A stretch of DNA of 64,000 nucleotides from Squalus acanthias (Eukaryota). The notes under the pieces were generated by a model that did not search any database, had not been told where the DNA came from, and saw only the letters and a list, made by a program, of their open reading frames with translations. Below, one piece after another: positions 2,806 to 51,514 of this stretch (its first letter is position 1; every line of letters starts with the position of its first letter). A program made the translations under genes and the position numbers. Where the stretch lies: NCBI GenBank assembly GCA_030390025.1, contig CM059432.1, positions 88,538,001-88,602,000 of the forward strand, read 5' to 3'.

Positions 2806-3373
2806 GTCTAGATGACGAAAACAGGCTTAGGACTGACAAGTAGAACATCCACCCCAACTCCTAATCATTTGGTTGGATTCATACCTTTTAGTTACCAATG
2901 TATAGCTTACAATGCTTATGTATTAGTTGGACTTATTTTGTGAACTATGCTTTCTCTCATATTTCTATAAATTCCAGGTGTAATCTTGATCAGGAGAATG
3001 ATGCTGGGCCTAAAATTCCTCTCAGTAGTGGTTGCAGTGCATTGTTTCCTGTGGCCTCTGCACTGATCTGCCTCTGAGCATGCTTGAAAAAGATGTTGCT
3101 ATTTACAGCCCATGTAAATCGCAGAAACATGATGATATGGGAGCCTGTAAGCGCTAGTCAGATGCAGGTCAGGTGCAGGCTACCCCTATTAAAACAGGCA
3201 GCGAGGGGAGAGAGGCTGCATTCTCGAGACCACACTTTTTAAAGGAGCAGGCAGCAAGCCGTGCAGAAGTGAGTTTTCGCCTCTACTTGTTCAGAGAGCA
3301 ATAATGGTGATTTCAGCAGTAGCAGTAGGGCTATGTTAATATTTGGATGCTGGAGAGTGCTCCAAGACTCCAA

Positions 3374-11832: not shown

Positions 11833-14628
11833 GATTTTAAGGCCCCAATATTAATCTGAGGAGGGGTGGGTGGAATTGCGTGGGTGAAACCTGGAAGTCA
11901 ACTCAGTGGGTCAGAAACTGCGATCGCAACTGAATTAAAGCAATTAATTTTGACTTCCAGGTTTCACGTCTCCAAGCTGCGCAGCGAGCGTGATCTCAAC
12001 TGTATTTAAAGGGACAATGCACAGATGGAAATTGGAGGTGTTCATGAAGGATGGTGCACATAGAGCAAGGGCAGCACCCAGATTCAGTGATGCACCACAG
12101 GAATTACTGCTGGGTGCAGTCAGGAGCTGGAGGGATATCTTTTCCCCAGCAACGGGAGGAAGAAACTTGGGGCTCTGACCAAGTGGGTGTGGTTGGAGGT
12201 AGCTGAGGAGGCGAGCAGCAGCAGCGTTGTGCCCAGGTCTTGGATGCAATGTAGGAAGCGGTTTAATGACTTAACCAAGTCAGGAAAAGTGAGTACATTT
12301 GATGATTCAACTACATCCTGTGCTTTAAGCCCGTCCCTCTTGCACTGCGTCTTGCCAAGCGTGCTCCTTCACATCACTTCTCACACCCACTCAACTTACA
12401 GCAGCTCCCAGCCTTCACTGTATAGGCACTTCATCACCTCCCCATTTATCCATCCAATTTGCCACTCACCCCAATCCTCATGCAATGTGATGTATGTGTC
12501 TCATAGTCACCCTCACCGAATATAATGTGCCAGTGGGTGAATACCTTACCGTCACTCACTCACAGGCCTGTTTTTTCACCCCTTGAAGGAGAAGAGAGCA
12601 TAAAATGCAAGGGAGAGGGAGCAGACTGGAGGTGGGCGGCCACATATAGACTAGCTAACAAATGCAGAGAAGGAGGCCATGGAGATAAGTGGCACATCTG
12701 CGTCCCCCTCAGTCGGAGATGGAGAGACGGGGAGCTCACAGATAGCTGGTGACAGAATTGCAAATATCTCTGACAGAGATAAGCTCACGTTATTTCATCA
12801 CTGACTGAACTATTAGATGACTGAATTTGGTGATTGTCAAGGGCTAAAAATTTGATAGAACCGTAAACAGGCGCAGGGATCGCGATGCACGATTGGCCCG
12901 CGCCGTTGAAAGGAATGCAGGCAGCACGCGACCTTGGTGCTGCCTGCTAATTACAATGATTGCAGCATGCAGCCCAGCACAGGACACGCTGCTGAGTGGC
13001 TGAACGCTCAGCAGGGGGCCCAAGTTCGTGCAAGGCTAGCTCCAATAAAGTTAGCCTTCACTTCTTAAAGGCAGTCTGCACCTCTTAAAAGGGAGGTGCA
13101 TTCTGCCTGTAGCAGCTTATGCAACTGATTGTGCAGGTAATGCACAGAAAGAAGAAAAGTGAAAAATGGCTCAACAGGCATGGGCTCCAAGGTTCTCGGA
13201 TGCAGCACTAGAGGCCTTAGTGCAGGGGGTGGAAAGGAGGAGACAGGTTGTCTATCCGCAGGGGGCAGGAGGCTCTTCAGACACACACTGTGAAGGCAGT
13301 AGCAGCAGATAGCCGACAAGATCAATGCCAGCTGTTTTGTCCCAAGGACATGGATGCAGGGCTGAAAGAAGTTCAACGACTTCTCATGAGTGGTCAAGGT
13401 CAGTGAATTAATTTTCAAATGCCGTCTCCCACCAAATGCACCACACCCCCATCACTCACCTACCAGCAATCTCTACCAAACACAACTCAAACTTCATATT
13501 CATTGCTTCACCTCACCCTCATACAATTATCACTGCTGCAAGCCTCATAGCCACATCTCACACTTCGCACACAATGCCAGCTATTCAACCATGACAGGTA
13601 CATCACCAAAACACATTGCATCACACTCACTGACACACTTCCCTCTCTCTTGCAGGGCAAAGTGGCTCATAACCGTAGGCAGCAGCAGCTAACTGGCGGG
13701 GGAAGGGCACGGCTGCATATCCTGACCCAGCTGGAGGAGATAGTGTTCAACATTATGGGAGGGGCTGTCACTGAGGCTGTGGCGAGCGGTGAGGCTGAAA
13801 ACATTGAAAATTATGGTCTGCTTATACCTAATCCTCCTTCTCACATCCCACTTCCACCTCATCCCACAATCTCTTCTCACTTACAAGCTGCTGATGGGGT
13901 GACTAGTAATCCAGAGGCCTGGACTAATGATCCAGAGACGTGAGTTCAAATCCCACCACAGCAGCTGGGGAATTTAAATTCAGTTAATTAAATCAAAATC
14001 AGGAATAGAAAAAGAAAGCTAGTATCAGTAATGGTGACCATGAAGCTATCGGATTGTCGTAAAAACCCATCTGGTTCACTAATGTCCTTTAGGGAAGGAA
14101 ATCTGCCGTCCTTATCTGGTCTGGCCTATATGTGACTCCAGACCCACAGCAATGTGGTTGACTCTTAACTGCCCTCTGAAATGGCCTAGCAAGCCACTCA
14201 GTTGTAACAAACTGCTACAAGAAACAATAATAAGAATAAAACCAGGGGGACCACCCGGCATCGACCTCGGCACTGGCTACGGACACAACAAAGGCACACC
14301 CAGCCGTCGACCCTTGCAAAGTCCTCCTCACTAACATCTGGGGACTTGTGCCAAAATTGGGAGAGCTGTCCCACAGACTAGTCAAGCAACAGCCTGACAT
14401 AGTCAGTACTCACAGAATTATGCCTTTCAGCCAATGTCCCAAACTCCTCCATCACCATCCCTGGGTATGTCCTGTCCCACAGGCAGGACAGACCCACCAG
14501 GGCTGGCGGCACAGTGGTATACAGTCGGGAGGGAGCAGCCCTGGGAGTCCTCAACATTGACTCTGGACCCCATGAAGTCTCATGGCTTCAGGTCAAGCAT
14601 GGGCAAGGAAACATCCTGCTGATTACTA

Positions 14629-14980
14629 CTTCAGCGGCAGTAAACAGCAGCGGGAGCCCAGGAGAGTGCGAGACTTCGGCGGCAGTAAACAGCAGCGGGA
14701 GCCCAGGGGAGCGCGAGACTTCGGCGGCAGTAACAGCAGCGGGAGCCCAGGAAAGCGCGAGACTTCGGCGGCAGTAACAGCAGCGGGAGCCCAGGAAAGC
14801 GCAAGACTTCGGCGGAAGTAACAGCAGGGGATTCCAGGAGAGCGCGAGACTTCGGCGGCAGTAAACAGCAGGGGATCCCAGGAGAGCGCGAGACCTCGGC
14901 GGCAGTAAACAGCAGGGGATCCCAGGAGAGCGCGAGACCTCGGCGGCAGTAAACAGCAGGGGATCCCAGGAGAGCGACTA
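14629..14980 (+). repeat. CpG-rich tandem array of 8 x 43-45 bp (CR1 5'UTR monomers)
   Basis: The unit cttcggcggcagta(a)acagcag(c)gggagcccaggagagcgcgaga is repeated head to tail without spacers. Confidence 0.9.
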
Positions 14981-15318
14981 CAAAGGACCGGTGAGTGTAA
15001 AGAAGTAAAAAGTAATCGAAGTGTGACGTCACCAGAAAGCAGGTAAGTGATTGGTTGGTGAGTATTTCCTAATTTCTCACTTTTTTTTCCAAACTTGGGC
15101 GTCTAAATTTAAGTGCCTTGGTGTAGATTAAAAGATATACATGTTCCAAAGTGACACCGGCGCAGGGGAAGAAGCTGATTGGTGAGTAGTGGGTGAGTGC
15201 TTTTTTTTCTCTTCAATTTTATGTCTATTTCTTTTAAGGTAGTTCAATAGTTAAGGTAGTTTGGGCGAGTGAGAATCCGAGAGTTTAAATTTAAGGTAAG
15301 AGTTTTTTAATTAAAAGT

Positions 15319-16269
15319 ATGAAAGGGGACCTCAGTCCCGTGCGTTGCATGGCCTGCAGCATGTGGGAATTCCTAGACGCTTCTTGCAGTCAGGATAACC
15401 ACATGTGCAGGAAGTGCCAACGGTTTGGCCAACTTGAGATCCAGTTTTCAGAGCTCGAGCGTCAGCTGGAGACACTGCGGTGTATCCGCGAGGCTGAGAG
15501 TTACGTGGATAGCACGTTTTTAGACGTGGTCACCCCGCAGCTTAAGAAAGTGCAGTCAGAGATGGAATGGGTGACCACCAGTCAGAAAAAGAGGGGCAGG
15601 CAGGTAGTCAGGAAAGCCCCAGAGTGCATCTCACTCAACAACCGTTTTTCTGTGTTGGAAAACGGTGAAAGTGACGGTTCCTCTGGGGAGTGCAGCCAGA
15701 GCCAAGTTCACAGCACTGTGGTTGATTCAGCTGCACAAGGGAGGAGGAGTAAGAGTGGAAGGGCAATAGTGGTAGGAGACTCAATAGTGAGGGGTGCAGA
15801 CAGGCGTTTCTGCGGCTGCAGACGTGACTCCAGGATGGTATGTTGCCTCCCTGGTGCCAGGGTCAAGGATGTCACTGAATGGCTGCAGGGCATTCTGAAG
15901 GGGGAGGGCGAACAGTCAGAGGTCGTGGTTCACACTGGTACCAACGACATAGGTAGAAAGAGGGATGAGGTCCTGCAACAAGAATTTAGGGAGCTAGGTA
16001 GCAGATTAAAAAGCAGGACCTCAAAGGTTGTAATCTCTGGATTACTCCCGGTGCCACGTGCTAGTGAGTATAGCAATAGGAGGATAGAGCAGATGAATGC
16101 GTGGCTAAAGAGTTGGTGCAGGAGGGAGGGCTTTAGTTTCCTGGATCACTGGGTTTGCTTCTGGGGAAGGTGGGACCTGTACAAGTCGGACGGGTTGCAC
16201 CTGAACCGGAACAGGACCAACATCCTTGTGGGGAGGTTTGCTAATGCTGTTTGGGGGGGTTTAAACTAA
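15319..16269 (+). CDS. CR1 ORF1p: Cys-rich zinc finger + coiled coil + SGNH/GDSL esterase
   Basis: Uninterrupted 316 aa with CMACSMW..CRKC, VVGDSIVR, HTGTND and DGLHLN. Confidence 0.9.
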   Translation: MKGDLSPVRCMACSMWEFLDASCSQDNHMCRKCQRFGQLEIQFSELERQLETLRCIREAESYVDSTFLDVVTPQLKKVQSEMEWVTTSQKKRGRQVVRKAPECISLNNRFSVLENGESDGSSGECSQSQVHSTVVDSAAQGRRSKSGRAIVVGDSIVRGADRRFCGCRRDSRMVCCLPGARVKDVTEWLQGILKGEGEQSEVVVHTGTNDIGRKRDEVLQQEFRELGSRLKSRTSKVVISGLLPVPRASEYSNRRIEQMNAWLKSWCRREGFSFLDHWVCFWGRWDLYKSDGLHLNRNRTNILVGRFANAVWGGLN

Positions 16270-16388
16270 CTTGGCAGGGGGATGGGATATGGAGTGGAGC
16301 TATAGTAGGGGGTGATGCACAGCCAAATATAGTGGAAAAAACAAGTCAGTCTGGAAGGCAGAGCAAATATATAATGGCACAAGGGAGT

Positions 16389-18998
16389 ATGGCAAGGCTG
16401 GATGGCATTTATTCTAATGCAAGGAGTCTTGCGAGTAAGGCAGATGAATTGAAGGTGTTGATGAACACATGGGAGTATGATATTGTTGCTATCACAGAGA
16501 CATGGTTGAGGGAGGGGCAGGACTGGCAGCTCAATATTCCGGGATATAGAATCTTCAGGTGAGACAGAGGGGGGGGGGGGGGGGGGGGGGGTGGTAAAAG
16601 AGGAGAGGGTGTCGCAATATTAATCAAGGAGTCAATTACTGTAGTAAGGAGGGATGATATCTTAGCAGGTTCCTCTAATGAGGCCATATGGGTAGAACTT
16701 AAAAACAAAAAGGGGGCAAGCACTTTGCTGGGAGTGTACTATAGGCCCTCAAACAGTCAGGGGAGATAGAGGAACAGTGATGTAGGCAAATCTCAGAGAA
16801 GTGTAGAAATAATAGGGTAATAATAGTCGGGGATTTCAACTTCCCCAATATTAACTGGGATAGTCAGAGTGTGAAAGGCTTAGAGGGTGCGGAATTCTTA
16901 AAGTGCATCCAGGAGAGCTTTTTGAGCCAGCATGTAGAAAGTCCTACAAGAGAGGGGGCAGTACTGGACCTAATTCTAGGGAATGTAGCCGGGCAAGTGG
17001 TAGAAGTGTCAGTAGGAGAGCATTTTGGTGACAGTGACCATAATTCGGTGAGATTTCAGGTAGTCATGGAAAAGGACAAAGATGGACCGGAAATAAAGGT
17101 TCTAAATTGGGGGAAGGCCGATTTTAATATGATAAGGCAGGATCTGACCAAAGTGGACTGCGATCAGCTACTTGTAGGAAATTCCACATCAGAGCAGTGG
17201 GAGTCATTCAGAAAGGAAATATAGAGAGTACAGCGCCAACATGTTCCCATAAAAGTCAAGGGTGGGACCAACAAGTCCAGAGAACCCTGGATGTCAAGGG
17301 ATATACAAGAATGGATTAGGAAAAAAAGGGAGGCTTTTGGCAGATACAAAGGACTAAAAACAGTGGAAGCCCTAGAGGAGTATAGAAAGTGCAGGGGGGT
17401 ACTTAAAAAAGAAATTAGGAGAGCGAAGAGGGGGCATGAAAAAACACTGGTGAGCAAAATAAAGGAAAATCCCAAGGTGTTTTATAAGTATATTAAGGGC
17501 ACGAGGATAACCAGGTAAAGAGTAGGGCCATTAGGGACCAAAGTAGCAATCTGTGTGTAGAGCCGGAAGATGTAGGTGAGGTTTTAAATGAATAATTTGC
17601 ATTGTGTTCACTATGGAGAAGGACGATGTAGGCATAGAAATCAGGCAGGGGGATTGTGATACACTTGAACAAATTAGCATTGAGAGGGAGGAGGTACTAG
17701 CGGTTTTAGCGGGCTTAAAAGTGCATAAATCCCCAGGCCCAGATGAGATGTATCCCAGGCTGTTGTGTGAGGCAAGGGAGGAGATTGCAGGGGCTCTGAC
17801 ACAAATTTTCAGAACCTTGCTGGCCACAGGGGAGGTGCCAGAGGACTGGAGGACAGCTAATGTAATACCATTATTCAAGAAGGGTAGTAGAGATAAACCA
17901 AGGAATCACAGGCCAGTGAGCCTAACATCAGTGGTAGGGAAATTATTGGAAAAAATTCTGAGGGACAGAATTAGTCTCCACTTGGAGAGGCAAGGATTAA
18001 TCAGGGATAGTCAGCATTGCTTTGTAAGGGGGAGATCATGTCTGACCAATTTGATTAAATTTTTCGAGGGGGTGACTAGATGTGTGATGAGGGTAGTGCA
18101 GTTGATGTAGTCTACATGGACTTCAGTAAGGCTTTTGACAAAGTCCCGCATGAGAGACTGGTCAAGAAGGTAAGAGCCCATGGGATCCAGGGCAATTTGG
18201 CACATTGGATCCAAAATTGGCTTAGTGGCAGGAGGCAGAGGGTGATGGTCGAATGTTGTTTTTGTGACTGGAAGCCTGTGTCCAGTGGTGTACCGCAGGG
18301 ATCGGTGCTGGGTCCCTTGCTGTTTGCAGTGTACATTAATGATTTAGATATGAATGTAGAAGGTATGATCAGTAAGTTTGCAGATGACATGAAAATTGGT
18401 GGAGTGGTAAATAGCGAGGAGGGAAGCCTCAGGCTACTGGATGATATAGACGGGTTGGTCAGATGGGCAGAACAGTGGCAAATGGAATTTAACCCTGAAA
18501 AGTGTGAGGTGATGCATTTTGGGAGGACTAACAAGGCAAGGGAATGAACAATGAATGGTAGGACCCTAGGAAGGACAGAGGATCAGAGGGACCTTGGTGT
18601 GCATGTACATAGATCCCTGAAGGCAGCAGGACAGGTAGATAAGGTGGTTAAAAAGGCATATGGCATACTTGCCTTCATTAGCTGAGGCATAGAATATAAG
18701 AGCAGGGAGGTTATGATGGAGCTGTACAAAACAGCTGGAATAGTGTGTGCAGTTCTGGTCGCCACACTATAGGAAGGATGTGATTGCGTTGGAGAGGGTG
18801 CAGAGGAGATTCACCAGGATGTTACCTGGGCTGGAGCGCTTCAGCTATGAGGAGAGACTGGACAGGCTGGGGTTGTTTTCCTTGGAGCAGAGAAGGCTGA
18901 GGGGGGACCTGATTGAGGTGTACAAAATTATGAGGGGCATAGATAGGATAGATAGAAAGGAACTTTTCTCCTTAGTAGAGGGGTCAATAACCAAGGGG
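16389..18998 (+). pseudogene. CR1 ORF2 (APE endonuclease + reverse transcriptase), disrupted
   Basis: Motifs NARSL, ITETWL, SDHN, KSPGPD, YMDFSKAFD, PQGSVLGP and FADD are spread over several frames, with a G23 run at 16569-16591. Confidence 0.9.
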
Positions 18999-20789
18999 TA
19001 TTCAGGCTTGTGTCTCACCTCCTGACTCCCCAAAGCCTTTCCACCATCTACAAGGCACAAGTCAGGAGTGTGATGGAATACTCTCCACTTGCCTGGATGA
19101 GTGCATCTCCAACAACACTCAAAAAGCTCGACACCATCCAAGACAAGGCTGCCCGCTTGATTGGCACCCCATCTACCACCTTAAGCATTCACTCCCTCCA
19201 CCACCGGCGTACCGTGGCTGCAGTGTGTACCATCTACACGATGCACTGCAGCAACTTGCCAAGTCTTCTTCGGCAGCACCTGCTAAACCCGCGACCTCTA
19301 CCACCTAGAAGGGCAAGGGCAACAGGCACATGGGAACACCACTACCTCCAAGTTCCCCTCCAAGTCACACACCACCCTGACTTGGAAGTATATCGTCGTT
19401 CCTTCATCGTCGCTGGGTCAAAATCCTGGTACTCCCTCCCTAACAACACTGTGGGAGTACCCTCACCACATGGACTGCAGCGGTTCAAGAAGGCAGCTCA
19501 CCACCACCTTTTCAACTGCAACTAGGGATAGGCAATAAATGCTGGCCTTGCCAGCGACGCCCGCATCCTATGAATGAAATTAAAAAAAGCATGCACATGT
19601 TGCTTTCCCCCACCCCCCTCACCACAACCCTACCCTTGTTCCTTTTTCCATTCAGATACCTAGGAACTCCAACCTGGCCAGCCAGTGCAGGAAGAGCAAG
19701 TGAAGATTGATGGAGAAGAAGAGGCACTCGATCTCACACTCGCATGCCCAAGCTTAGAAACTGGCACTGTGAGTACTTTAGAGGGTATTATAGAGGCGGG
19801 ATCTGCACGTGGTGAGTCACCGGACATGGGTGGCCTGCAGCCAGGGCAGGGGGCAAAGAGTAGTGCAGGTGCCAACTCTCCAGAGGGTGAGGTCACACAC
19901 GAGTTCTGCTGCAGAGGACACATGGAGGACATTGATGGGGCGGCCTACAGAAGAAGGGTGTTGGGCATGCATAATGAAATGCTTGGTGCATTGGCAAATC
20001 TGCCAGAGAGCCTGTTGTCACTGTCAAGGAGCTTGGAGGAGTCCGGAATCATCTTTGCACAGGGCTTTGCACAGAGCTTGGAGCCCATGATTTTTAGGAT
20101 GGAAGTGATGGGCAACTCCGTTAGTGCACTTGTGGACCCAGCGTCTGATGGGCGATGTCTCAGAAACCACCCAATGTCTGAGTGCTGAAGTGGAAGCTCA
20201 GATTTCTGCCATGCAAGCTCACACTGCTGCTATCATGGCTGTGTTTACCAGTGTTGAAAGGGGCTTGCCAGGTGTCACAGCAGTCCAGCAATATGTCCTC
20301 CAACAGATTACTAGGACTGCTAGGAGTGTCAGTGGCTCCCTGGAGCACGAACCTGCTGTCCTCTCTCAGGATGACAGCATTCATCCTCCCACCACTGCCA
20401 CTCCTCCAGTGCCCTTGCTGCTGCCTGTCAGCCAGCCAGCCCAGACTGCTGCCGCCCTTGCCTAAGTGGAGCAGGCCACTGCCGAGCATTCTAGGCCCAG
20501 AGCTGCTCGAGGTCGTCCTGCAAGGCCATCTGCAGTCTCGCCACTCCATGTCAGCAGCCTTCCACCAGCCATGCTGCAGCCACTGGGGTAGCACTAAGGG
20601 AATGCTCAAGGGTGATTAATTGAATTTGTTCTGTAATACTGGATGATTGATTTATAAATTATGTTTGGAATGTTTGTTTTGTGGTGGCTTTCATTTCAGC
20701 ATTGTGGCCAAGAGAACGCTGTGATGTTCCATTGCAGAGGGATGGTAAGGTGGGGAAGTGTTGAGCAATGGGGATCTGGGGTTTCTTTC

Positions 20790-32096: not shown

Positions 32097-33176
32097 ATGA
32101 AACCCCAGATCCCCAATACCTCACTACTTCCCCATCATACTGTCCCTCTGTTACGGAACATCACAGCGTGATCCTGGGCACAAAGCTGAAATGAGAGACA
32201 CCACAAAACACACATTCCAAACAAAATTCAGAAATTTATTTGATTCTAATCAAAATTATAATATCAACTGAACACCCGTGTGCATGCCCTGGTCTGTCGT
32301 TAGTGTGCCTTTACCTACTCTAGCGCTCCTACACAATGCTCCCTCAGTGGCTGCAGCATGGCTGGTGGAAGGCTGCTGACTCTCAGTGGGGGAGACTGCA
32401 GATGGCCTTGCAGGATGACCTCAACCAGCTGTGGACCTCGAAGGCCCAGCTGTAGACTGCACCACCTCGGCATGGGCAGCAGTCTGGGCTGGCTGGCTGA
32501 TGAGCAGCGGCAAGGACATGGTGGAGCGGCAGTGGTGGGAGTAGGAAGGCTGTCATCCTGAGAGAGGACAGCAGGTTCTTGCTCCACTGACCCACTGCCA
32601 CTCCCCCGGGGCGGCGCCTCAGCTTCACTAGCAATGTGTTGGAGGACAGTGAGATGTTGGGTCGCTTCTGCCTGTGCTGCAATGGAAGCTGCAACATCGC
32701 CCATCGGTTGTGGTGAGGGGAGTGGGGGGAAAGCAAGATATCTATGCATATACCATCAGCAGCTTGCAAGTGAGAAGAGATTGTGGGATGATGGGGAAGT
32801 GGAATGTGAGAAGAAGGATTAGGTATGACCGTACTGTCATTATCAGCAATGGCTTCAACTTCTCCGGTGGCCTCCAAAAATGTCAAGCACCGATTCCTCC
32901 AGGTCGGTGAGGTTCCATATTGCGGCTTGGCCGCCTCCTATCTGCCGCTGCTCCCTCCTGTTAAGTGCCACCTTTGCCTACAAGAGAAAGGGAAGTGTGT
33001 CAGTGAGTGTGGTGCAATGTGTTTGGGGGATGTGCCTGCCATAGGTGAATAGCTGTCAGTGTGTGCAAGGCGTGCGATGTGGGTGTGAATATTGCAGCAG
33101 TGGTAAGGTTGTAAGGATATAGTGAAGCCATGAATGTGAGGTATGAGTGGTGATAGCTCGAGATTGTTGGTAGGTG

Positions 33177-34312
33177 GTGGTGGACCATTAAATAAATAAC
33201 AGGAGGAGGAGGCTTCATGAATATCCCCATCCTCAATGATGGTGGAGCCCAGCACATGAGTACAAAAGACAAGGCTGAAGTGTTTGCAACCATCTTCAGC
33301 CAGAAGTGTCGAGTGGATGACCCATCTCGGCCTCCTCCTGAGGTCTCCACCATCACAAAAGCTAGTCTTCAGCCAATTCGATTCACTCCACGTGATATCA
33401 AGAAATGGCTGAGTGCACTGGATACAGCAAAGGCTATGGGCCCCGACAACATTCCGGCTGTCGTGCTGAAGACTTGTGCTCCAGAACTAGCCGCGCCTCT
33501 AGCCAAGCTGTTCCAGTACAGCTATAACACTGGCATCTGTCCGACAATGTAGAAAGCTGAGCAGGTATGCCCTGTCCACAACAAGCAGAATAAATCCAAT
33601 CCGGCCAATTACCGCCCCATCAGTCTACTCTCAATCATCAGCAAAGTGGTGGAAGGTGTCGTCGACAGTGGTATCAAGCGACACTCACTCACCAATAATC
33701 TGCTCACCGATGCTCAGTTTGGGTTCCGCCAGCACCACTCGGCTCCAGACCTCATTAAAGCCTTGGCCCAAACATGGACAAAAGATCTGAATTCTAGAGG
33801 TGAGGTGAGAGTGACTGCCCTTGACAGTATTTGACCGAGTGTGGCATCAAGGAGCCCTAGTAAAACTGAAGTCAGTGGGAAGTGGGGAAAACTCTTCACT
33901 GGCTGGAGTCATAATTAGCACAAAGGAAGATGGTTGTGGTGGTTGAAGGTCAATCATCTCAGTCCCAGGACATCGCTGCAGGAGTTCCTCAGGGCAGTGT
34001 CCGAGGCCCAACCATCTTCAGCTGCTTCATCAATGAACTTCCCTCCAACATAAGGTCAGAAGTGGAGATGTTCGCTGATGATTGAACAGTGTTCAGTTCC
34101 ATTCGCAACTCCTCAGATAATGAAGCAGTCCATGCCTGCATGCAGCAAGACCTGGACAACATACAGGCTTGGGCTGATAAGTGGCAAGAAACATTCACGC
34201 TACACAAGTGCCAGGCAATGACTATCACCACCACCTTCTCAAGGGCAATTAGGGATGGGCAATAAATGCTGGCCTTGCCAGTGACAACCACATCCCGGAA
34301 TGAATAAAAAAA
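33177..34312 (+). mobile_element. family B LINE fragment, 5'-truncated and internally deleted
   Basis: GPDNIPAVVLKTCAPELAAPL and QFGFR motifs, the same 3' tail as the other copies, and AGGTG duplicated at 33172-33176 / 34313-34317. Confidence 0.85.
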
Positions 34313-35386
34313 AGGTGAGTGATGGAGGTGTGGTGCATTGAACAGTGTGTGAGTCTCGTGATGCAGATAGTGGGTTATGGCATTTGCCGTGCGAAGTCAT
34401 TAATCTTTTATAGGCACTGGATCTGCGTCCTTGGGATCACACTGGTGGCCGTGACAGAGTGAGCTATCTCCTCCCACAGACTTGTGCAAATGGCCTTGGA
34501 TCTCCTCCTCCCACTCTGTGGTTACAGGACAGTCTGCCTTCGTTGCACAGCCACGACCAAGGCATCCAGTGCAGCATCTGAGAACCTTCTTGTTTACTCC
34601 CTTGGTTGCTGAGCTATGTCTTCACCCACACTGACAATGAGGTGCTGCTGCAACAACGCACCTCCCCTTTCAGTAGTGCAGAGAGCCTAGACCAAACCTG
34701 ACTGGCCAGTAGACAGCACCCGATATTGGCCCCTCCGTTGAGCGCTAAGCCAATCAGCAGCGCATTTAGTGCTGAGATCAGCGCTCCAATCATTATAATG
34801 AGCAGGCGGCATGAATTTTTCATGCTGCCTGCACCACTTTGAACGGGTGCGGGCAAATAGCACTGGCTCTTGACACCGCCCATTTTTGGGCCTAATCCAA
34901 TTTCTGGGCCTAAAAGTTTTAACAGTTTTCTTATTTTATATGTAACTGCTGTATTCCATCTTCATTTTCCTTGAAGCACAGTAACAGCACTTGTGAAAGC
35001 ATCCACTTTTGCAAATCTTGAACTCTAGGGGGGAAAAATTAGGTCGCGCCCCGTTTGGGGCGCAAATATCGTCTGGACGCAAAAATTAGCGCCTGGCGCT
35101 AATTATCGCCACTGATTAGAAACTTCACTTTTACCGCCCCGGGAGGTGAGTGGAGCGCTAAATCAGGCGCTGCACACCTGTCTTAAGGCGCAAAGGCCGA
35201 GCAGTGAGGCGCTAACTCAGCGCGCGAGCGCAGCGCAGGTACTGCCAGTTAGCGAGGGAACACAGACACACTGGCGCCGGCCAGTTCTTAAAGCGGGGGG
35301 GCCAACTTGCTCCCCAGCCACACCCTGCTCATTGCAGCCTTGAATCTCGGCCTGGAGAGACCTGTGAATCCATTTTGCTGCCAAGG

Positions 35387-37151
35387 ATGGAGAGGGTGAG
35401 AGAACGAGCTCAGCGCCTCACCGAGCGGGCCTTGGATGCTCTGGTTGGCGCAGTGGAGCGCAGACGATGTATGCTCTTCCCTGAGAGTGGCAGGAGGCCT
35501 TTGCCACGCGAGTACAGAAGAGTGTGGAGGGAGGTGGCTCAGAGCGTCTCCTCCAGGATCATGGTGCCCAGGACCCATGTTCAATGCCACAAAAAGTTCA
35601 ACGACCTCACTCGGGTCGTCAGGGTGAGTGGCTTTTTCTCAATACCTCTCCATCCCTCCATCTCAACCTCACTCTATGGCCAGAGGGTGTTAAAACCCCA
35701 ATGCACAACACTCATCCAACACCTATGGCCCTTTCATGAAACACACACACACATTCCACACTTTGCATACAGTAAGGGCTATTCACCTATGGGAGGCACA
35801 TCAGGCAAGACCATGGCTGTATTTTACTCAGATGCTGTCCTTTTACTTGCAGGCCAAGCTGGCGCATAATAGGAGACAGCAGCAACGGACAGGTGGAGGG
35901 CGGCCTCAGCTGCAACCCCTCAGCGATCTTGAGGAGCGCGTCCACAGGATTGTGGCAAGCCGGGTGATCGGTCCCGTCGCCACTGGAGACGCCGACCCCG
36001 TTCTTGACAGCAATGGTAAGGTCATCACCTTTTTGTCCTCTGTCCTTCCACTTGTCCCTCACAACACCAGCCTTTGACACTTTCAATCCAACTTGCTAAC
36101 TCGCTGCACTTATTCCTCCCTTACTGCCACCCTGTCCTCACGCTAAAGCCACTCTTGTACCTCCCTGCTTTCAGATGGTGATTCACCAGCTGAGGAGACG
36201 GGCCCTGAAGCTGCCAGTGGGAGTGAAGCTGCAGGCGAGGAGGAAGATGAAGGCGGAGCATCAGTGCCACCCTATCCCGAGGAAGCCCATGCCCACACTG
36301 GGAACACGCCTTCCCTGGAGGGGAGCAGGGGGGAAGGGTCTGATGAGGGTGAAGCTCCAGGACCCAGCGGGCTGCAGCAACGCCATGGGGGTAGGGAAGA
36401 ATGGGGGCCTTCTCCCCAGAGGGAGAGTATGCCAGCGACTCCTACTGCAATGGACGCAGAGGAGGAGCGGCTGATCGCAGAAATGAACACCCAGGCGGTG
36501 GGCATGCACACTGAGCTCATGGGTGCAGTGGGAAGGGTGCCCGAATGCATTGAGTCACTGGCAAGGAGTGTGGAGCACTTCGCTGTAGCACAGGCGGATG
36601 CCACACTAAAGCTTAGTGCTGCAATTCAGTCACTGACTGCCGTGATCCCATCTCTGACTGCTCTCATGCAGACTCAGATTGAGGCCACGCGAGCACTGAC
36701 TGCTGCCAACCTCGATGGTTCGTTCACATGTCCCCGGGGCTCTCACCACGCCGCAGCAGGCCAGCAATCTGTGCTCCAGCAGATTGCTCCGGATGCTGAA
36801 GTGCTGCCCCTTGGGAGTGCCAGTGTGTCGGTCGAGCAAGGAGTTGCTGTCCTCTCTCACGATGACAGCATTCCTGCTGCCAACACTGTCACTTCTCCAC
36901 TGCACTTGCCACCGCCTGTAGGACAGACTGCTGCCGCCCATGCAGAGTTGGTGCAGTCTGCAGCCGGGCCCTCCAGGCCCAGAACTGGTCGAGGCCGTCC
37001 TTCAGGGGCATCTGCAGTGTCAGGGTCTGACAATCAGCAGCCTTCCACCAGCCTTGCTGCAGCCACTAAGGTCCCATTACGGAGGAGCAGTAGGGTTAGA
37101 AGGGGGGAAGTGCGCAAGGGAAGGAGATCACCCTCGAAGGGCAAAAAGTAG
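35387..37151 (+). CDS. Harbinger Myb/SANT-like DNA-binding protein; join(35387-35623, 35853-36015, 36175-37151), 458 aa
   Basis: Canonical GT-AG introns (agg|gtgagt, ttgcag|gcc, atg|gtaagg, tttcag|at). The phases give one open frame with WREVAQ..QCHKKFNDL, AHNRRQQQRTGGG and LSDLEERV. Confidence 0.87.
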
Positions 37152-37462: not shown

Positions 37463-38623
37463 CTAGAAGCGGCTTGCTATCAGCCGTTGACGGACGGCTC
37501 TTGCAGTTTCACCATTGTGGGCCGCCCTCCCTCCTTGGTGCTGCTGATAATCATCCTCCTCGTCCTCTTCCTCCTCTTCCTCCTCCTCCTCTGGTGGTGC
37601 TCCAAGGCCTGGTGGCATTGGCTGGGTCCTGACGATTGCCATGTTATGCAACATGCAGCACACAACTACGAAGTTGGATACTCGCTCAGGCGAGTACTGC
37701 AGGGCTCCTCCAGAATGGTCGAGACAGCGGAACCGTTGCTTCAGCACGCCGATTGTGCGCTCAATGATGTTCCTGGTAGCTTGATGGCTCTCGTTGTACC
37801 GCAGCTCAGCAGGGGTGTTGGGCGTACGGAGCGGTGTCATCAGCCAGGTGCTCAATGGATACCCCTTGTCCCCGAGAAGCCAACCAACTGGCTGATGCGG
37901 TGCCTCGAAAAGTTCTGCCACAGTAGTCTGGCGCAGGATGAAAGCATCGTGGCAGCTGCCAGGATAGTGGGCATTGACAGCGAGTATCAGCTGTCTGTGG
38001 TCACAGACCAACTGAACATTCAAGGAATGGAACCCCTTTCTGTTCCGGAAATCCTCGGCATTCTCATGCGAAGCACGCAAAGCCACATGCGTGCAGTCAA
38101 TGGCGCCCTGCACCATGGGGAAGCCCGCTATCCTCGCAAAGCCCAGAGCGCGGTCACGCTGCTTGTCTGGGGTCATGGGGAAAGAGATGAACTCTCGTCT
38201 CCTTTTAAAGAGGGCATTTGTGACCTGCCGGATGCAGCAATGCACCGCGAACTGGGAGATATTGGCGAGGTCCCCAGCAGCAGCTTGAAATGAGCCAGTA
38301 GCATAGAAGTTGAGAGCCACTGTGACCTTCACTGCCACCGACAGAGACGTCCTGGACCTCAGTTGAGGCTGCAGATCTGGCTGCAGCAGGTGGCAGAGCT
38401 CAGTGACCACCTCCTTGCTGAATCGCAGCCTTCGCAAACACAGCTCCTCAGACAAATGAATGTAGGAGAGCTGTTCACGATATACCCTGGGAGGGTAAGC
38501 TCTCCTGTACAGACGCCTGTTGGCCCTCCTCCGTCTGGCCATCATCGCCATTCTCTCTCTGCGTCTCTGTGTCCTCCGATTCAGCTGGAGCAGGACGACG
38601 CCCCCATTCAGTGCAGCCCCCAT
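37463..38623 (-). CDS. Harbinger DDE transposase (HARBI1-like), 386 aa
   Basis: An uninterrupted ORF from the ATG at 38623 carries the catalytic GAIDCTH, LLGDKGY and IIERTIG motifs, plus RKGFHSLNVQLVCD and CCMLHN. Confidence 0.95.
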   Translation of the reverse strand: MGAALNGGVVLLQLNRRTQRRRERMAMMARRRRANRRLYRRAYPPRVYREQLSYIHLSEELCLRRLRFSKEVVTELCHLLQPDLQPQLRSRTSLSVAVKVTVALNFYATGSFQAAAGDLANISQFAVHCCIRQVTNALFKRRREFISFPMTPDKQRDRALGFARIAGFPMVQGAIDCTHVALRASHENAEDFRNRKGFHSLNVQLVCDHRQLILAVNAHYPGSCHDAFILRQTTVAELFEAPHQPVGWLLGDKGYPLSTWLMTPLRTPNTPAELRYNESHQATRNIIERTIGVLKQRFRCLDHSGGALQYSPERVSNFVVVCCMLHNMAIVRTQPMPPGLGAPPEEEEEEEEEDEEDDYQQHQGGRAAHNGETARAVRQRLIASRF

Positions 38624-38795
38624 AGTCTCTTTGCAAGCAAAGTTATGAAGGACAGCAACCAAAGTACCAGCGAAGTTAGGATCAGTAGGCAAAACTACCT
38701 CACAAAGCGTTGACTCAATGCAGAAGTCTCTCTTTCTCTCTCAGAATGAGTGGTACAAAAATGTCAACCACAGAAAAAGACAGGAAGAGGCCCCC

Positions 38796-39133: not shown

Positions 39134-42100
39134 GGTACGGCAGTGTAATGGTTATGTTACTGGACTAGTAATACAGAGGCCTGAACTAATAATCCGTGAG
39201 ACGTGAGTTCAAATCCTGCCAAGGTAGTTTGTGAATTTGAATTCAGTAAAAATAAAAAATAAAATAAATCTGGAATAAAAAGCTAGTATCTGTAATGGTG
39301 ACCATGAAGCTACTGGATTGTTGTAAAAACCCATCTGGTTCACTAATGTCCTTCAGTGGAAGGAAATCTGCTTTCCTTACCTGCTCGGGCCTATAAGTGA
39401 CTCCAAACCCACACCAATGTGGTTGAATCTTGATTGGCAAGCCACTCAGTTTTATCAAATTGGTACAAAGATGTATAATAAATTGCTACACAGGAAGTGG
39501 TTGAGGCAAATAGTTTAGATTCCTTCAAAAGGAGAAACCTAGACGAGTACTTGAAAGATAAAGGAATAGAAAGATATGCTACAAGGCTGAGATGAGTCAG
39601 AAGGAATGGGAGGACACTCGTGTGGAGTATAAACACCAGCACAGACTAGCCGAATGGCCTGTTTCTGTGATGTATATTCTATGTAATAAGAATAAAACTG
39701 ACAGACCACTTGGTTTCGACTTAGGCATTGGATTCGGATACGACAAAGGCACACCCAGACCAGTCGACCCTGTAATGTCCTCCTCACTAATACCTGAGGT
39801 CCAAAGGTGGGAGAGCTGTCCCACAGACTAGCCAAGCAACAGCCTGACATAGTTATACTCACAGAATCGTACCTATCAGCCAATGGCTCAGACTCCTCCA
39901 TCACCACCCCTGGGTGTGTCCTGTCCCACTGGCAGGACAGACCCACCAGGGGTAGCGGCACAGTAGTATGCAGTTGGGAGGAAGTGGCCCTGGGAGGCCT
40001 CAACATTGACTATGTACCCCATGAAGTTTCATGGCACCAGGTCAAACATGGGCAAGGAAACCTCCTGCTGATTACCACCTACCGCCCTCCCTCAGCTGAT
40101 GAATCAGTACTCCTCCATGTTGAACACTACTTGGAAGAAGCACTGAGGGTAGCAAGGGATCAGAATGTACTCTGGGTGGGGGACTTCAATGTCCATCACC
40201 AGGAGTGGCTCGTTAGTACCACCATTGACTGAGCTGGCCGAGCCTGAAGGAGATAGCTGTCAGACTGGGCTTATGGCAGGGGGTGAGAGAACCAACATGA
40301 GAGAAAAACCTACTCGACCTCGTCCTCACCAATCTACCTGCTGCAGATGCATCTGTCCATGACAGCATTCGTAGCAGTGGCCACCGCACAGTCCTTGTGG
40401 AGACGAAGTTCTGTCTTCACACTGAGGACACCCTCCATCGTGTTGTGTGGCACTACCACCGTGCTAAATGGGATAGATTCAGAACAGATCTAGCAGCTCA
40501 AAACTGGGCATCCATGAGGGGTTATGAGCCATCAGCAGCAGCGGAATTGTATTCCACCACAATCTGCAAACTCATGATGTGGCATATCCCTCACTCCACC
40601 ATTACCGTCAAGCCAGGAGACCAACCCTGGATCAATGAGGAGTGTAGAAGAGCATGCCAGGAGCAGCACCAGGTGTACCTGAAAATGAGGTGCCAACCTG
40701 GTGAAGCTACAACATAGGACTACATGCATGCTAAACAGTGGACGCAGTATGTTATAGACAGAGCTAAGCGATCACACAGCCAGTGGATCAGATCAAAGCT
40801 CTGCTGTCCTGCCACATCCAGTCGTGAATGGTGCTGGACAATTCAACAACTAACAGGAGCAGGCTCCATGAACATCCCCATCCTCAATGATAGCGGAGCC
40901 CAGCATGTGAGTGCAAGAGACAAGGCTGAAGCGTTCACCACCATCTTCAACCAGAAGTGTTGAGTAGATGATCCATCTTGGCCTCCTCCTGAGGTCCCCA
41001 CCATAACAGATGCCAGGTATGTCCTGGCCACAAAAAGCAGGACAAATCCAATCCGGCCAATTACCACCCCATCAGCCTATTCTCCATCATTAGCATATCA
41101 TAAGCAAAGTGATGGAAGGTTTCATCAACACTGCTATCAAGCGGCACTTACTCACCAATAACCTGCTCACTGTTGCTCAGTTTGGGTTCTGTCAGGACCA
41201 CTAGCTCCAGACCTCATTACAGCCTTGGTCCAAACATGGACAAAAGAGCTGAATTCCAGAGGTGAGGTGAGAGTGACTGCCCTTGACATCAAGGCAGCAT
41301 TTGACCGAGTGTGGCATCAAGGAGCCCTAGTAAAGCTGAAGTCAATGGGAATCGGAGGGAAAACTAGCCACTGGCTGGAGTCATACCTAGCACAAAGGAA
41401 GATGGTTGTGATTATTGGAGAACAGTCATCTCAGCCCCAGGACATCGTAGCAGGAGTTCCGAAGGGCAGTGTCCTAGGCCCAACCATCTTCAGCTGCTTC
41501 ATCAATGACCTTCCCTCCAACATAAGGTCAGAAGTGGAGATGTTTGCTGATGATTGCAAAGTGTTCAATTCCATTCACAATTCCTCAGATAATGAATCAG
41601 TCCGTGCTCACTGCAGCAAGATCTGGACAACATCCAGGTTTGGGCTGATAAGTGGCAAGTAACATTTGTGCCATACAAGTGTTAGGCAATGACCATCTTC
41701 AACAAGATAGAGTCTAACCACTGCCCCATGATATTCAATTCTTGGCATTACCATCACCGAATTCCACACCATCAATATCCTGGGGGTCACCATTGATCAG
41801 AAACTTAACTGGACCAGCCACATAAATACTGTGGCTACAAGAGCAGGTCAGAGGCTGGGTATTCTGCAGCGAGTGACTCACCTCCTGACTCCCCAAAACC
41901 TTTCCACCATTTACAAGGCACAAGCCAGGAGTGTGACGGAGTATTCTCCACTTGCCTGGATGAGTGCAGCTCCAACAACACTCAAAAAGCTCGACACCAT
42001 CCAGGACAAAGCAGCCCGCTTGATTGGCACCCCATCCACCACCTTAAACATTCACTCCTTCCACCACCGGCGCACCGTGTCTGCAGTGTGTACCATCTAC

Positions 42101-42454
42101 AAGGTGTACTGTAGCAACTTGCCAAGGCTTTTTCGACAAAACCTCCCAAAGCCGCGACCTCTACCACCTAGAAGGACAAGGGCAGCAGACGCATGGGAAC
42201 ACCACCACCTCCAAGTTCCCCTCCAAGTCACACACCATCCTGACTTAGAAGTATATCACCGATCCTTCATCGTCGCTGGGTCAAAAATCCTGGAACTCCC
42301 TCCCTAACAGCACTGTGGGAGTACCATCACCACATGGACTGCAGCGGTTCAAGAAGGCGGCTCACCACCACCTTCTCAAGAGCAACTAGGGATGGACAAT
42401 AAATGCTGGTATTGCCAGCGACGCCAACATCCTGTGAATGAATGAATAAAAAAA
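39134..42454 (+). mobile_element. tRNA-headed single-ORF LINE (family B), copy B, near full length, decayed
   Basis: A box-like GGCAGTGTAATGG and B box GAGTTCAAATCC (39205), followed by APE (QQPDIVILTESYL, YRPPS, GDFNVHH), RT (LDIKAAFDRVWH, PKGSVLGP, FADD) and a (gaat)n-polyA tail. Confidence 0.88.
39482..39683 (+). mobile_element. CR1 3' fragment inserted in the family B 5'UTR
   Basis: CR1 end motifs flanked by TAATAA on both sides; copy A has an empty site here. Confidence 0.75.
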
Positions 42455-42627
42455 CAGTACTCTTGGATTCCTGCTTGATTTTTGTTTTTAATCTCTTCCT
42501 TTGTGATAATCTAAGTGATGTGCACTATATATTCTTTATTTTGATATTTAACTTTTAAACTAAACACAAATCAATTATTTCAAAGCCTCGCATTTAGATT
42601 ATCCTTTTCACTTTGCGGAACATTCTA

Positions 42628-46691: not shown

Positions 46692-46837
46692 AAAGTTCTC
46701 TATTCCCTCGCAGTGACATCCCTTACATCATGAACACAACATTGCTCAGAAAAACTCGTAGCCATGATCACGTAACTGGAGGGCCACTCAGTTTGTTAAA
46801 ACAAACAATTTAATTAGATATTTCACGTAACAATTTC

Positions 46838-47128
46838 TTGACATCAAGGCAGCATTTGACCGAGTGTGGCATCAAGGAGCCCTAGTAAAACTGAAGTCAA
46901 TGGGAATCGGAGGGAAAACTAGCCACTGGCTGGAGTCATACCTAGCACAAAGGAAGATGGTTGTGGTTATTGGAGAAAACAGTGGACGCAGTATGTTATA
47001 GACAGAGCTAAGCGATCACACAGCCAGTGGATCAGATCAAAGCTCTGCTGTCCTGCCACATCCAGTCGTGAATGGTGCTGGACAATTCAACAACTAACAG
47101 GAGCAGGCTCCATGAACATCCCCATCCT
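46838..47128 (+). mobile_element. permuted two-piece copy of the family B LINE
   Basis: 46838-46977 matches 41283-41422 and ~46977-47128 matches 40733-40885. Confidence 0.88.
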
Positions 47129-47154
47129 CTTTTTGTATCTCCTACCTTCAACCT

Positions 47155-49262: not shown

Positions 49263-50853
49263 TTTACTTATTATTTGTATCTAATGGCGTATTTGGGCCA
49301 AACAAACTGGAAGATTTATTTTGTAATATTACTAAAATTTGATAATTGATATTACTAATACCCAAGTATATTAAAAGTATTTACAAAATGTTATTCCAGT
49401 GCTTAAAAGACACTTGTAGATATCTATAGATATATGGCCTGGTGACAGAATGAATTATTGTGCTGTCCTGCACACTGAGCCACTTAGGTTTGAATACTAG
49501 CCTCAGCTGACATTCACATTCAAGTTTCAGGTAGTGACAGGGACCTGACTAACTTAACTACATTATTATTCAGTGCAGGAACAAGTAGAGGCAAGGTGCC
49601 TTGATGGAAGGAAGAGAAAATTGGCAAAGGTTACATTTTCAGATTGTACCCTGACCCCCCTTCTCCTCATTGGTTGGTCATAGAAAGGAATTCTTCCCCA
49701 CTACTACCACCTCATCGCTACCACTAGAACAATTGTAGCACAGACTATGGAGACAACTGTGGACACACACCCCTCTACCCATATATTCTTGTGTGTGCTA
49801 ATGTGTGTGGGGCGAAGTGCAAGTGCCTCATGAATATGTTGAAGACGCATAACATCGACCTCCTCACGCTCCAGGAAACCCATGTCTCCAATGATCAACT
49901 GGCCAGCCGCTGCTGTATCTATGGATACAACCTCATGACTAGCCACCACCACCCGAAATTTGGCCTGGCCATATACGTGAAGACCACCATCACGGATTTC
50001 GATGTTTTCCCCCCAACTGAAGAAGAAGCCATTTACACCACCGCCACCAAGATAGGGGAACTGCACATTACCACCATTACCTAATTCAAAATGGCCGAAG
50101 CCAGCATTCCCAAGTGCACCAATCCCAGCCCTATATGTTGCTGACTATAACATCCACCACACTATGTGGGGCTATGAAGCAAATGATGGCGACAGCGAAG
50201 ACCTCATGGACTGGATGTCCGCAGAAGATCTGCAACTAGTCTTCAATCCAAAACAGCAAGCAACTTTCCACTCCACACGCTGGCAACGCGACTACAACCC
50301 GACCTTATCATCATTTCCAAAGATCAAAGCGGAAGCACGCTCCATGCATCCCACAAAATACTCCCCAACTTCCCCAATAACCAATATAGGCCCATCATTA
50401 CCCATGTCGGCATCAAAATCCCCGTGATTCTGTCGAAATGAATTCCACGGTGGAACCTGGCCAAAGCCATCTGGGACTGCTATAGGGAAGTCATCGAAAA
50501 AGTAGTGATCTGAATCCCCATGACACCGAAATGTCATCACAGGTTTGCTGGCCTCCTTACTGCCGCCACCAAGAAGAGTATCCCCTGGGGCTTCTGGGAA
50601 TAACACCCTCCCTGCTGAACAAAAGAGACCCAGGACCTGCTCCGCCAGTACAACCAGTTGGGCAGCCCACAGGTTGCGAAGGCCCTGTTCAAGTCTCTAG
50701 ACACATCCAGATGCCAGCGGTGGATTGAGTTTGATGAAGGTTTGGACTTCACACACTCTAGTCGCCATGCCTGGCCTCTACTACGATACCTTGGAGTCAC
50801 TAATCTGACGGAATATCCGAACTCAAAAGTCTGGTCCAACTCCATAACCTCCA

Positions 50854-51514
50854 TGATAGCAAAATACTGCAGATGCTGGAAATCCGAAATAACAACAGAA
50901 AACGCTGGAAAAACTCAGCAGGTGAGGCAGCATCCGTGGAGAGAGAAACAGAGTTAACGTTTCAGGTCGAAGACCTTTCATCAGAACTGGAGACAGCAGG
51001 AAATCAAATAGATTTAAAGCAAGGATAAAGCTGGGAAAAGGGGGAGGGGATAAAAGAACAAAAGGAGAGATTAAGAGACATTTAGAGACATTAAGAGATA
51101 TCAAGGCAAGAGGTGGTGTTAATGTGACAGGTTAAGGCTGAAAGAAGTGTGAAATGCAATGGCAGAATGAAGGACAGCTGCCAGCTTCTAGGAGGAAAAA
51201 AAAAAGGGGGGGCAAATAAAAGGGTGGATGAGAAAATAAAATATAAATGTGATGGGGCTAAGGTTATGATCTAAAATTGTTGAACTCGATATTGAGTCCA
51301 GAGGGCTGTAGCGTGCCTAAACGAAAGATGAGGTGCTGTTCCTCGAGCTTACGCTGCGCTTCCGTGGAACAGTGTAATAGGCCGAGGATGGTGAGGTCAG
51401 AGTGGGAGTGAAGCGGTGAATTAAAGTGACAAGCGACCGGGAGCTCGGGGTCCCCCTTACGGACTGAACAGAGGTGTTCCGCAAAGCGGTCACCCAATCT
51501 GCGTTTGGTCTCCC
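50854..51514 (-). mobile_element. 5'-truncated Penelope-like element
   Basis: GIY-YIG C-terminus GETKRRLGDRFAEHL..PVACHFN..RKLEEQHLIFRLGTLQPSGLNIEF, with a 12-bp TSD CCATAACCTCCA (50842-50853, 51515-51526). Confidence 0.92.
50952..50988 (-). ncRNA. minimal type I hammerhead ribozyme in the Penelope 3' region
   Basis: AGUU-CUGAUGA-A-AGGUC(UUC)GACCU-GAAA-CGUU-AACU: the conserved core, a perfect stem II, a 4-bp stem I and a palindromic ACGU stem III. Confidence 0.75.

What the first reader, a model, noticed from the sequence alone, without database searches (positions are those of the whole stretch)
39134..42454. Single-ORF LINE family that starts with a tRNA-like Pol III promoter head (an 'autonomous SINE'-like chimera)
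Seen: two independent copies (13900 and 39134) carry the same ~400-nt leader with a B box (GAGTTCAAATCC); copy B also keeps an A box-like motif. The leader runs straight into an APE-RT ORF with no ORF1, so the head belongs to the family and is not a chance adjacent SINE. Known: CR1/L2-group LINEs normally have ORF1 and a Pol II promoter. Inference: the LINE captured a tRNA/SINE head, and internal deletions would directly yield SINE-like elements. I also recall similar leader-plus-tail sequences in salmonid repeats, which is unverified and would suggest horizontal transfer.
Basis: partly seen in the sequence, partly recalled or inferred. Interest (0 to 1): 0.72.

Follow-up and report, generated by a model that had tools for sequence, protein, structure and literature searches.

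The report
Shark LINE with tRNA promoter head
This is a worn copy of an abundant shark-and-ray jumping gene that encodes its own copying enzymes, yet begins with a tRNA-derived head like those of non-coding SINEs, lacks the T-runs that stop RNA polymerase III and has no in-frame start codon, so it is likely a protein-coding RNA made by that polymerase and possibly translated through a tRNA-mimicking hairpin, neither of which has been tested.

Summary
Window 39134-42456 is a decayed copy of a 3,314-nt single-ORF APE-RT LINE whose first 400 nt match the published consensus SquAca_Zenon-1 (PMC13343379, read by eye). The tRNA-derived head belongs to the family. All 11 of 40 RT-selected copies that reach the leader carry it, 1,156 genomic sites join leader to ORF, and all five published elasmobranch consensuses begin with it. 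Lack of ORF1 is normal for Zenon. The paper's main text never mentions tRNA, promoter or polymerase III. The sense strand has no TTTT and one 4-of-5-T cluster against 5.6-12 expected (P<=0.006, four nulls), while a neighbouring CR1 has 21 in 2.55 kb. The 973-codon ORF has no ATG before codon 287. A hairpin with an anticodon-like loop complements the in-frame codon at the ORF's start, resembling dicistrovirus IRES domain 3 (speculative). Internal deletions give SINE-like copies, some apparently amplified. Salmonid transfer is unsupported. Pol III transcription is inferred (about 0.6), not shown. The scan reported this family before at other loci and genomes.

The parts
39134..42456 (+). Copy B of the Zenon LINE: near-full-length, decayed (80% to the family consensus in the head and leader, 89-91% in the body), older subfamily; possible 3-bp target duplication CAG
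39134..39227 (+). tRNA-derived head: D-arm-like region, anticodon-like hairpin, long second hairpin in the variable-arm position, T arm
39141..39151 (+). A-box-like motif
   Evidence: consensus positions 9-19
39205..39216 (+). B box (same form as in this genome's tRNA-Gln genes)
39228..39481 (+). Conserved leader; the pre-ORF hairpin is partly deleted in this copy (17-nt gap)
39482..39683 (+). Nested 3' end of an unrelated CR1-type element (label recalled from its tail), TAATAA duplication; not part of the family
39684..42389 (+). Broken single ORF: APE endonuclease (PF03372, PF14529) and RT (PF00078); 196-nt deletion at 41016
42405..42456 (+). 3' tail hairpin, GAAT repeats and short poly-A
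13901..14629 (+). Copy A, 5' part (consensus 31-751, 95%): head without A box, intact leader, ORF start
14176..14216 (+). Pre-ORF hairpin (stem 14176-14201) with 7-nt anticodon-like loop (14186-14192) and the complementary in-frame GCT codon (14214-14216): candidate anticodon-codon mimic
   Evidence: cross-species reading
18997..19588 (+). 3' part (consensus 2721-3314), likely the rest of copy A after the nested CR1 and a deletion
33175..34313 (+). Third copy, 5'-truncated (starts at consensus 1503) and internally deleted

Best explanation
It is a dead copy of the elasmobranch Zenon LINE, a 3.3-kb single-ORF APE-RT retrotransposon whose full-length unit starts with a tRNA-derived A/B-box head, and the family is likely transcribed end to end by RNA polymerase III from that internal promoter. 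Steps: (1, shown) head, leader, ORF and hairpin/poly-A tail insert as one unit, with short target duplications and the usual scattered 5' truncations. (2, inferred) TFIIIC/Pol III would start about 8 nt before the A box and read through 3.3 kb because the sense strand has been purged of T-runs, stopping in flanking DNA. (3, inferred, weakest) the uncapped RNA has no in-frame AUG and would be translated cap-independently, possibly through the pre-ORF hairpin whose loop mimics an anticodon paired to the in-frame GCT codon, as domain 3 of dicistrovirus IGR IRESs does. (4, from established LINE biology) the protein would bind the 3' hairpin and copy the RNA by target-primed reverse transcription. 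(5, shown for structure, inferred for mechanism) internal deletions keep head and tail and give ready-made SINE-like elements, some junction types of which likely amplified.
For: Head is part of the unit: 11 of 40 RT-selected loci extend into the leader, all 11 match it, and 7 start at consensus position 1-2. Their upstream flanks are unrelated and hold no common ORF. 1,156 exact genomic matches join leader to ORF start. Short target duplications flank several whole units (L062, L083, L100). All five elasmobranch consensuses in PMC13343379 begin with the head, three with a canonical B box, and the second hairpin shows two double-sided compensatory changes between species (read by eye). The head scores against this genome's tRNA-Leu, -Gln and -Ser at z 7-8 with 0 of 300 shuffles as high. 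T-run purge: no TTTT in the consensus; 0.11 per kb in 147 kb of young copies against 4-5 per kb in co-resident CR1 copies; one 4-of-5-T cluster against 12.0, 7.0, 5.6 and 11.7 under four nulls (P<=0.006), with A, C and G clusters at 42, 51 and 23. First in-frame ATG is at codon 287 of 973. The pre-ORF hairpin has pair probabilities of 0.88-0.99, and such a hairpin with a cognate triplet downstream arises in 0.4% of shuffled leaders.
Against: No transcript start, polymerase occupancy or translation data: the RNA runs available are contigs whose RNA status is a guess. TTTT absence alone is not significant under the strictest nulls (P=0.11 synonymous shuffle; P=0.20 first-order Markov); only the 4-of-5-T statistic is. 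PMC10886601 states that non-LTR elements are Pol II-transcribed and that Pol III products are short. No mismatch footprint at the tRNA A58-equivalent position (74 of 76 unchanged). The leader as a whole folds no better than shuffles (z 0.55) and Rfam finds no IRES. The mimic pairing is only 3-4 bp, was noticed post hoc, and its U33-equivalent and one stem base are hypervariable among copies (T 52, C 15, G 5, gap 8; C 60 of 78). An ATG in the +1 frame near the ORF start is present in the -1 consensus of all five species and in 14 of 38 copies here. No intact ORF was found: the longest open frame was 700 aa among loci L001-L100.
Confidence: 0.62

Rival explanations
1. Split labour: Pol III makes the RNA that is retrotransposed, but the protein is made from separate capped Pol II read-through or spliced transcripts of copies inside host genes and acts in trans.
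For: Explains head, T-run purge and the missing ATG without cap-independent translation. The family readily mobilises non-coding derivatives: 10 of 29 head-selected loci are head-plus-tail only. Relative L176 has an intron-acceptor-like stretch just before its ORF (by eye).
Against: The ORF stayed open and under constraint within the head-bearing lineage (shared non-CpG variants 15 synonymous to 11 non-synonymous; the rebuilt ORF is open for 973 codons), which is easier to maintain with cis preference. No splice acceptor is evident before this ORF, whose upstream region is T-poor.
Confidence: 0.15
2. Pol II element with a relic head: the tRNA part is a captured SINE head now serving as 5' UTR (or the promoter lies in the leader), T-poverty reflects codon or composition bias, and translation starts at the +1-frame ATG with a frameshift or reinitiation, or at a near-cognate codon.
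For: All characterised LINEs are Pol II products. The strict nulls do not reject chance for TTTT alone. The +1-frame ATG is conserved across five species' consensuses. The B box here and in the ray consensus departs from the canonical form.
Against: The 4-of-5-T depletion survives shuffles that keep codon usage and dinucleotides. Three AATAAA signals sit in the first 360 nt, awkward for a Pol II transcript. The element's 5' end sits where a tRNA 5' end would, and head structure is kept across sharks by compensatory change. 22 of 38 copies here have ATA at the +1-frame site.
Confidence: 0.2
3. Chance adjacency, or one-off template-switch chimeras between a separate SINE and 5'-truncated LINE copies.
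For: Head-plus-tail SINE-like copies exist and were the only complete head-bearing form in an unselected 400 kb (3 of 19 copies; none full length).
Against: One fixed leader-ORF junction at 1,156 exact matches, in five species; no alternative 5' end among 40 RT-selected copies.
Confidence: 0.03

Closest known systems
Elasmobranch Zenon LINEs (SquAca_Zenon-1, CarCar, RhiTyp, ScyCan, HypSab Zenon-1; Stuart et al. 2026, PMC13343379)
   Same: Same family: the first 400 nt of SquAca_Zenon-1 match my consensus except at polymorphic sites (by eye), both are 3,314 nt, no ORF1, poly-A tail.
   Different: The paper's main text has 0 occurrences of 'tRNA', 'promoter' and 'polymerase III'. The head, T-run purge, missing start codon and SINE-like derivatives were not in the passages and sections I read.
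Lepidopteran Zenon and its internally deleted derivative Persaeus (PMC6740152)
   Same: Single-ORF CR1-group LINE of about 3.3 kb giving short internally deleted elements.
   Different: Persaeus is stated to have no tRNA homology and no Pol III promoter; here the deleted forms inherit a tRNA head.
tRNA-headed SINEs with bipartite LINE bodies (Bov-tA, AfroSINE, SINE2_Gav; Kojima 2018, PMC5786205)
   Same: tRNA head + LINE 5' part + LINE 3' tail.
   Different: There the head was added to a non-coding derivative and only RTE and Vingi donors were found; here the coding LINE itself carries the head.
RTE-1_DAn and relatives
   Same: A LINE with a tRNA-like sequence, mentioned in one sentence of PMC5786205: a possible precedent.
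   Different: Different clade; position and function of the tRNA-like part are not given, and search found the name in no other listed paper.
Dicistrovirus IGR (type 6) IRES, domain 3 / PKI (PMC10275262, PMC12221177)
   Same: Hairpin mimicking an anticodon paired to a codon just before a non-AUG ORF, after a short variable linker.
   Different: Only 3-4 bp of possible pairing here, no L1.1, SLIV or SLV motifs recognised, no Rfam match, no function shown; 'retrotranspos' does not occur in PMC12221177.

Membership tests
Zenon (CR1 group) | Single ORF with APE and RT, no ORF1 | tested here: met
   973-codon ORF, Pfam APE and RT, nothing conserved upstream of the head
Zenon (CR1 group) | Poly-A tail | tested here: met
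   85 of 101 3' ends have a run of 5 or more A within about 22 nt of the tail motif
Zenon (CR1 group) | RT falls in the Zenon clade | tested here: inconclusive
   No labelled Zenon reference could be used. My tree groups it with a whale-shark protein and sets it far from the window's CR1 (29-33% identity) among 40-50% identical single-ORF invertebrate-type proteins, with unresolved deep forks. The label rests on near-identity to SquAca_Zenon-1 over 400 nt.
Canonical CR1 | Esterase ORF1 or clustering with esterase-bearing relatives | tested here: not met
   No ORF1; the nested CR1 has the esterase (PF13472) and lies on a separate long branch
tRNA-derived SINE (SINE2) | tRNA-derived head with A and B boxes | tested here: met
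   z 7-8 against own tRNA-Leu/Gln/Ser; ARAGORN calls in 5 loci; Rfam match weak. Isotype unresolved.
tRNA-derived SINE (SINE2) | Short and non-coding | tested here: not met
   Full-length form is 3.3 kb and coding; met only by the head-plus-tail derivatives
tRNA-derived SINE (SINE2) | Transcribed by RNA polymerase III | not testable with these tools
   Only indirect support from terminator avoidance
Type 6 (IGR) IRES | PKI anticodon-codon mimic directly before a non-AUG ORF | tested here: inconclusive
   Hairpin, loop and in-frame cognate codon present and conserved in five consensuses, but no covariation is available and two positions vary among copies
Type 6 (IGR) IRES | PKII/PKIII ribosome-binding domains | tested here: inconclusive
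   No Rfam match, leader z 0.55; the folding tools do not model pseudoknots
Type 6 (IGR) IRES | Factor-independent initiation | not testable with these tools
   Needs in vitro translation or toeprinting

The most novel reading that the evidence does not exclude
A self-sufficient Pol III retrotransposon: an autonomous LINE that has swapped the whole Pol II/cap/AUG route for a tRNA promoter and a dicistrovirus-like anticodon-mimic IRES, and that gives birth to SINEs by simple deletion. It would be a natural multi-kilobase protein-coding Pol III gene in a vertebrate genome and a cellular-genome example of a type-6-like IRES.
Probability: 0.28. Interest if true: 0.93.

Novelty: new variant of a known kind. 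Interest (0 to 1): 0.72.

Why it matters
LINEs are held to be Pol II transcripts and Pol III products to be short and non-coding. A family that covered 3.4% of an unselected 400 kb here, and is shared by sharks and rays, appears to break that divide. It makes two questions directly testable: can Pol III make a translated 3.3-kb mRNA, and how is an uncapped, AUG-less LINE RNA translated? It also offers a second route to SINE birth, deletion of a head-bearing LINE, with intermediates visible in one genome.

Tried and rejected
Rfam on copy B's head: no tRNA or IRES match. tRNA isotype: Leu, Gln and Ser score alike, ARAGORN says Thr from the loop; only 8 isotypes of real tRNA were recovered, so it is unresolved. 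Idea that the second hairpin is a recent duplication of the anticodon arm: dropped, since other species carry a compensated variant at the same place. T-runs before the poly-A as a terminator relic: 24 of 101 ends have T4 or more in the first 30 nt against 14 of 101 in the next 24 nt, but similar T creep occurs in the leader's A tracts, so it is not used as evidence. m1A58 footprint: none. Which frame the N-terminal 36 codons are under selection in: too few changes (2 synonymous to 2 non-synonymous in the ORF frame). Heads in distant relatives: 80 metagenome loci and 48 viral pattern hits show no leader match, but these relatives are only 24-41% identical. HE1/HER1 and SacSINE1/CmiSINE were considered as the head's source: CmiSINE/SacSINE1 pair with an L2 tail and HE1 is recalled only; no sequence comparison was possible. 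The count (48) used a gap range that missed the mode and was replaced.

Full report
Observation. Window 39134-42456 and 13901-14629 share a leader and the start of an APE-RT reading frame. The B box is present in both and an A-box-like motif in copy B. Copy B carries a nested 200-nt CR1 3' end inside the leader/ORF boundary and a 196-nt deletion. Copy A lacks its first 30 nt, is split by an esterase-ORF1 CR1, and keeps only the last 590 nt. The window lies in a 3.7-Gb genome.

Family structure. Forty loci were chosen by the RT domain (20 top hits plus 20 picked mostly for long open frames, from 150 listed). Of these, 11 extend into the leader and all 11 match it, 7 from position 1-2. Two more carry the head across an internal deletion, and 27 are 5'-truncated at scattered points within the ORF. 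Flanks upstream of the truncated and the full-length copies share nothing in register at the breakpoints. Of 29 other loci chosen by the head alone, 13 continue into the ORF, 4 jump to mid-ORF, 10 are head-plus-tail and 2 end in or just after the leader. An exact leader-to-ORF pattern matches 1,156 sites, with 0 for the reversed control. Short target duplications (3-6 bp) flank several whole units, though many copies show none. In an unselected 400 kb there were 19 copies covering 3.4% of the DNA: 14 head-less truncations, 3 head-plus-tail, 2 head fragments and no full-length copy. Full-length copies are therefore a minority.

Identity. An earlier scan note pointed to PMC13343379. I read its abstract, passages, sections 10 and 17, and the first 400 characters of supplement rows. 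SquAca_Zenon-1 is 3,314 nt and matches my consensus over those 400 nt except at polymorphic sites (by eye). All five elasmobranch Zenon-1 consensuses begin with the head; the hagfish and coelacanth ones show no such head by eye. The paper states that all Zenons lack ORF1 and have poly-A tails, and that among 101 vertebrates, a salmon included, they occur only in elasmobranchs, coelacanth and hagfish. Its main text has no 'tRNA', 'promoter' or 'polymerase III'. Named close protein hits were whale shark, horn shark and sevengill shark; full-length relatives at 34-48% are 920-1,010-aa proteins, named ones from amphioxus and shrimp. My RT tree separates the family from the window's CR1 but has no labelled Zenon reference.

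The head. It aligns to this genome's tRNA-Leu, -Gln and -Ser at z 7-8. ARAGORN calls it as a tRNA with a long variable arm in 5 loci, and Rfam gives a sub-threshold match on a young copy and none on copy B. Three other species have a canonical B box, and the second hairpin differs between species by two double-sided compensatory changes (by eye), suggesting the RNA fold is maintained.

Terminator avoidance. The consensus has no TTTT on the sense strand, against 3.9 expected from base shuffles (P=0.01), though this alone is not significant under synonymous-codon (P=0.11) or first-order Markov (P=0.20) nulls. Counting 4 T in 5 nt gives 1 observed against 12.0, 7.0, 5.6 and 11.7 (P<0.001, 0.005, 0.006, <0.001), while A, C and G clusters number 42, 51 and 23 and the nested CR1 has 21 in 2,550 nt. 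Young copies hold 0.11 TTTT per kb against 4-5 for co-resident CR1 copies; a single Vingi-like copy has 0.9. An older-subfamily consensus, covering about the first 1.7 kb, also has none.

Translation. The first in-frame ATG is codon 287, after the endonuclease. Just before the ORF is a well-predicted hairpin (positions 298-323) with a 7-nt loop of anticodon form whose middle triplet complements the in-frame GCT at 336-338, two codons after the upstream stop. Hairpin and GCTA are constant in five species while the 8-9-nt linker varies, and the distance from there to the next conserved block is 17, 14, 17 and 17 nt in four published consensuses and 17 in mine, keeping frame; the published SquAca-1 has 16 (by eye). 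This resembles domain 3 of dicistrovirus IGR IRESs (passages of PMC10275262 and PMC12221177). Against it: only 3-4 pairs, post hoc, two hypervariable positions, an unremarkable overall fold, and a conserved +1-frame ATG as an alternative. I noted this idea before seeing that two earlier scan notes had raised it.

Short forms. Junctions of head-plus-tail copies scatter (5' side about 312-350 in most, 3' side 3169-3249), as independent deletions would. A pattern for the shortest class matches 399 sites, and about 26 of the 100 listed share one exact junction without microhomology (counted by eye), which suggests a SINE subfamily that amplified. Diagnostic bases are shared across junction classes rather than private to one, so independent amplification is likely but not proven.

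Literature. Searches listed no paper describing a Pol III-driven coding LINE or a tRNA head on shark Zenon; (Zenon, shark, tRNA, LINE) returned 0 papers. The library lacks most subscription journals and Repbase Reports. [quoted passage not shown] HE1/HER1 and the labels CR1, Vingi and Harbinger for neighbours are recalled.

Verdict. A real, family-wide feature of a catalogued LINE. Head-bearing autonomous-type structure: shown. Pol III transcription: about 0.6. Pol III together with an anticodon-mimic start: about 0.3. Salmonid transfer: unsupported. The scan has reported the same family many times at other loci and in other genomes (194 notes matched the words); those notes are not independent evidence.

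Noticed in passing
window 46837-47129: Two pieces of copy B (41282-41422 and 40733-40885) repeated 5-6 kb away in swapped order at 98.6% and 100% identity, although copy B is about 10% from the consensus: looks like a recent locally templated insertion, or an assembly artefact.
   Followed up: partly
window 37463-38740 (-) and 36147-37151 (+): Open 425-codon DDE_Tnp_4 transposase frame and a facing 334-codon frame with no Pfam match; many decayed relatives across the window (Harbinger-like, label recalled).
   Followed up: no
window 14630-18996: Nested CR1-type LINE with esterase ORF1 (15295-16269, PF13472) and a tandem array of about 45-nt units at its 5' end (14628-14976).
   Followed up: partly
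window 50056-53290: Decayed second single-ORF-like APE-RT element (Vingi-like, label recalled).
   Followed up: no
family consensus positions 309 and 316 (window 14187 and 14194 in copy A): Non-CpG positions in the pre-ORF hairpin with scrambled substitutions and single-base gaps that do not track subfamily markers; either relaxed sites or a reverse-transcription footprint of an RNA modification. Position 309 is C in about a quarter of the depth in run X4 too.
   Followed up: partly
L176:1020-1060: A 39%-identical relative has a branch-point/pyrimidine/AG-like stretch just before its ATG-less ORF, hinting that a related Zenon-type element solves the start problem by splicing (by eye).
   Followed up: no
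G000:C1:100.8-101.1 Mb and C21:3.34-3.42 Mb: Long tandem arrays of tRNA genes (Leu-AAG with Met every 1.99 kb; alternating Gln-CTG/TTG).
   Followed up: no
run X23 laid on L079: A DNA run of coded organism I holds only 133 matching reads in 1.5 Gb, spread over the element, 91% running on into unlike sequence; low-level presence or contamination.
   Followed up: no
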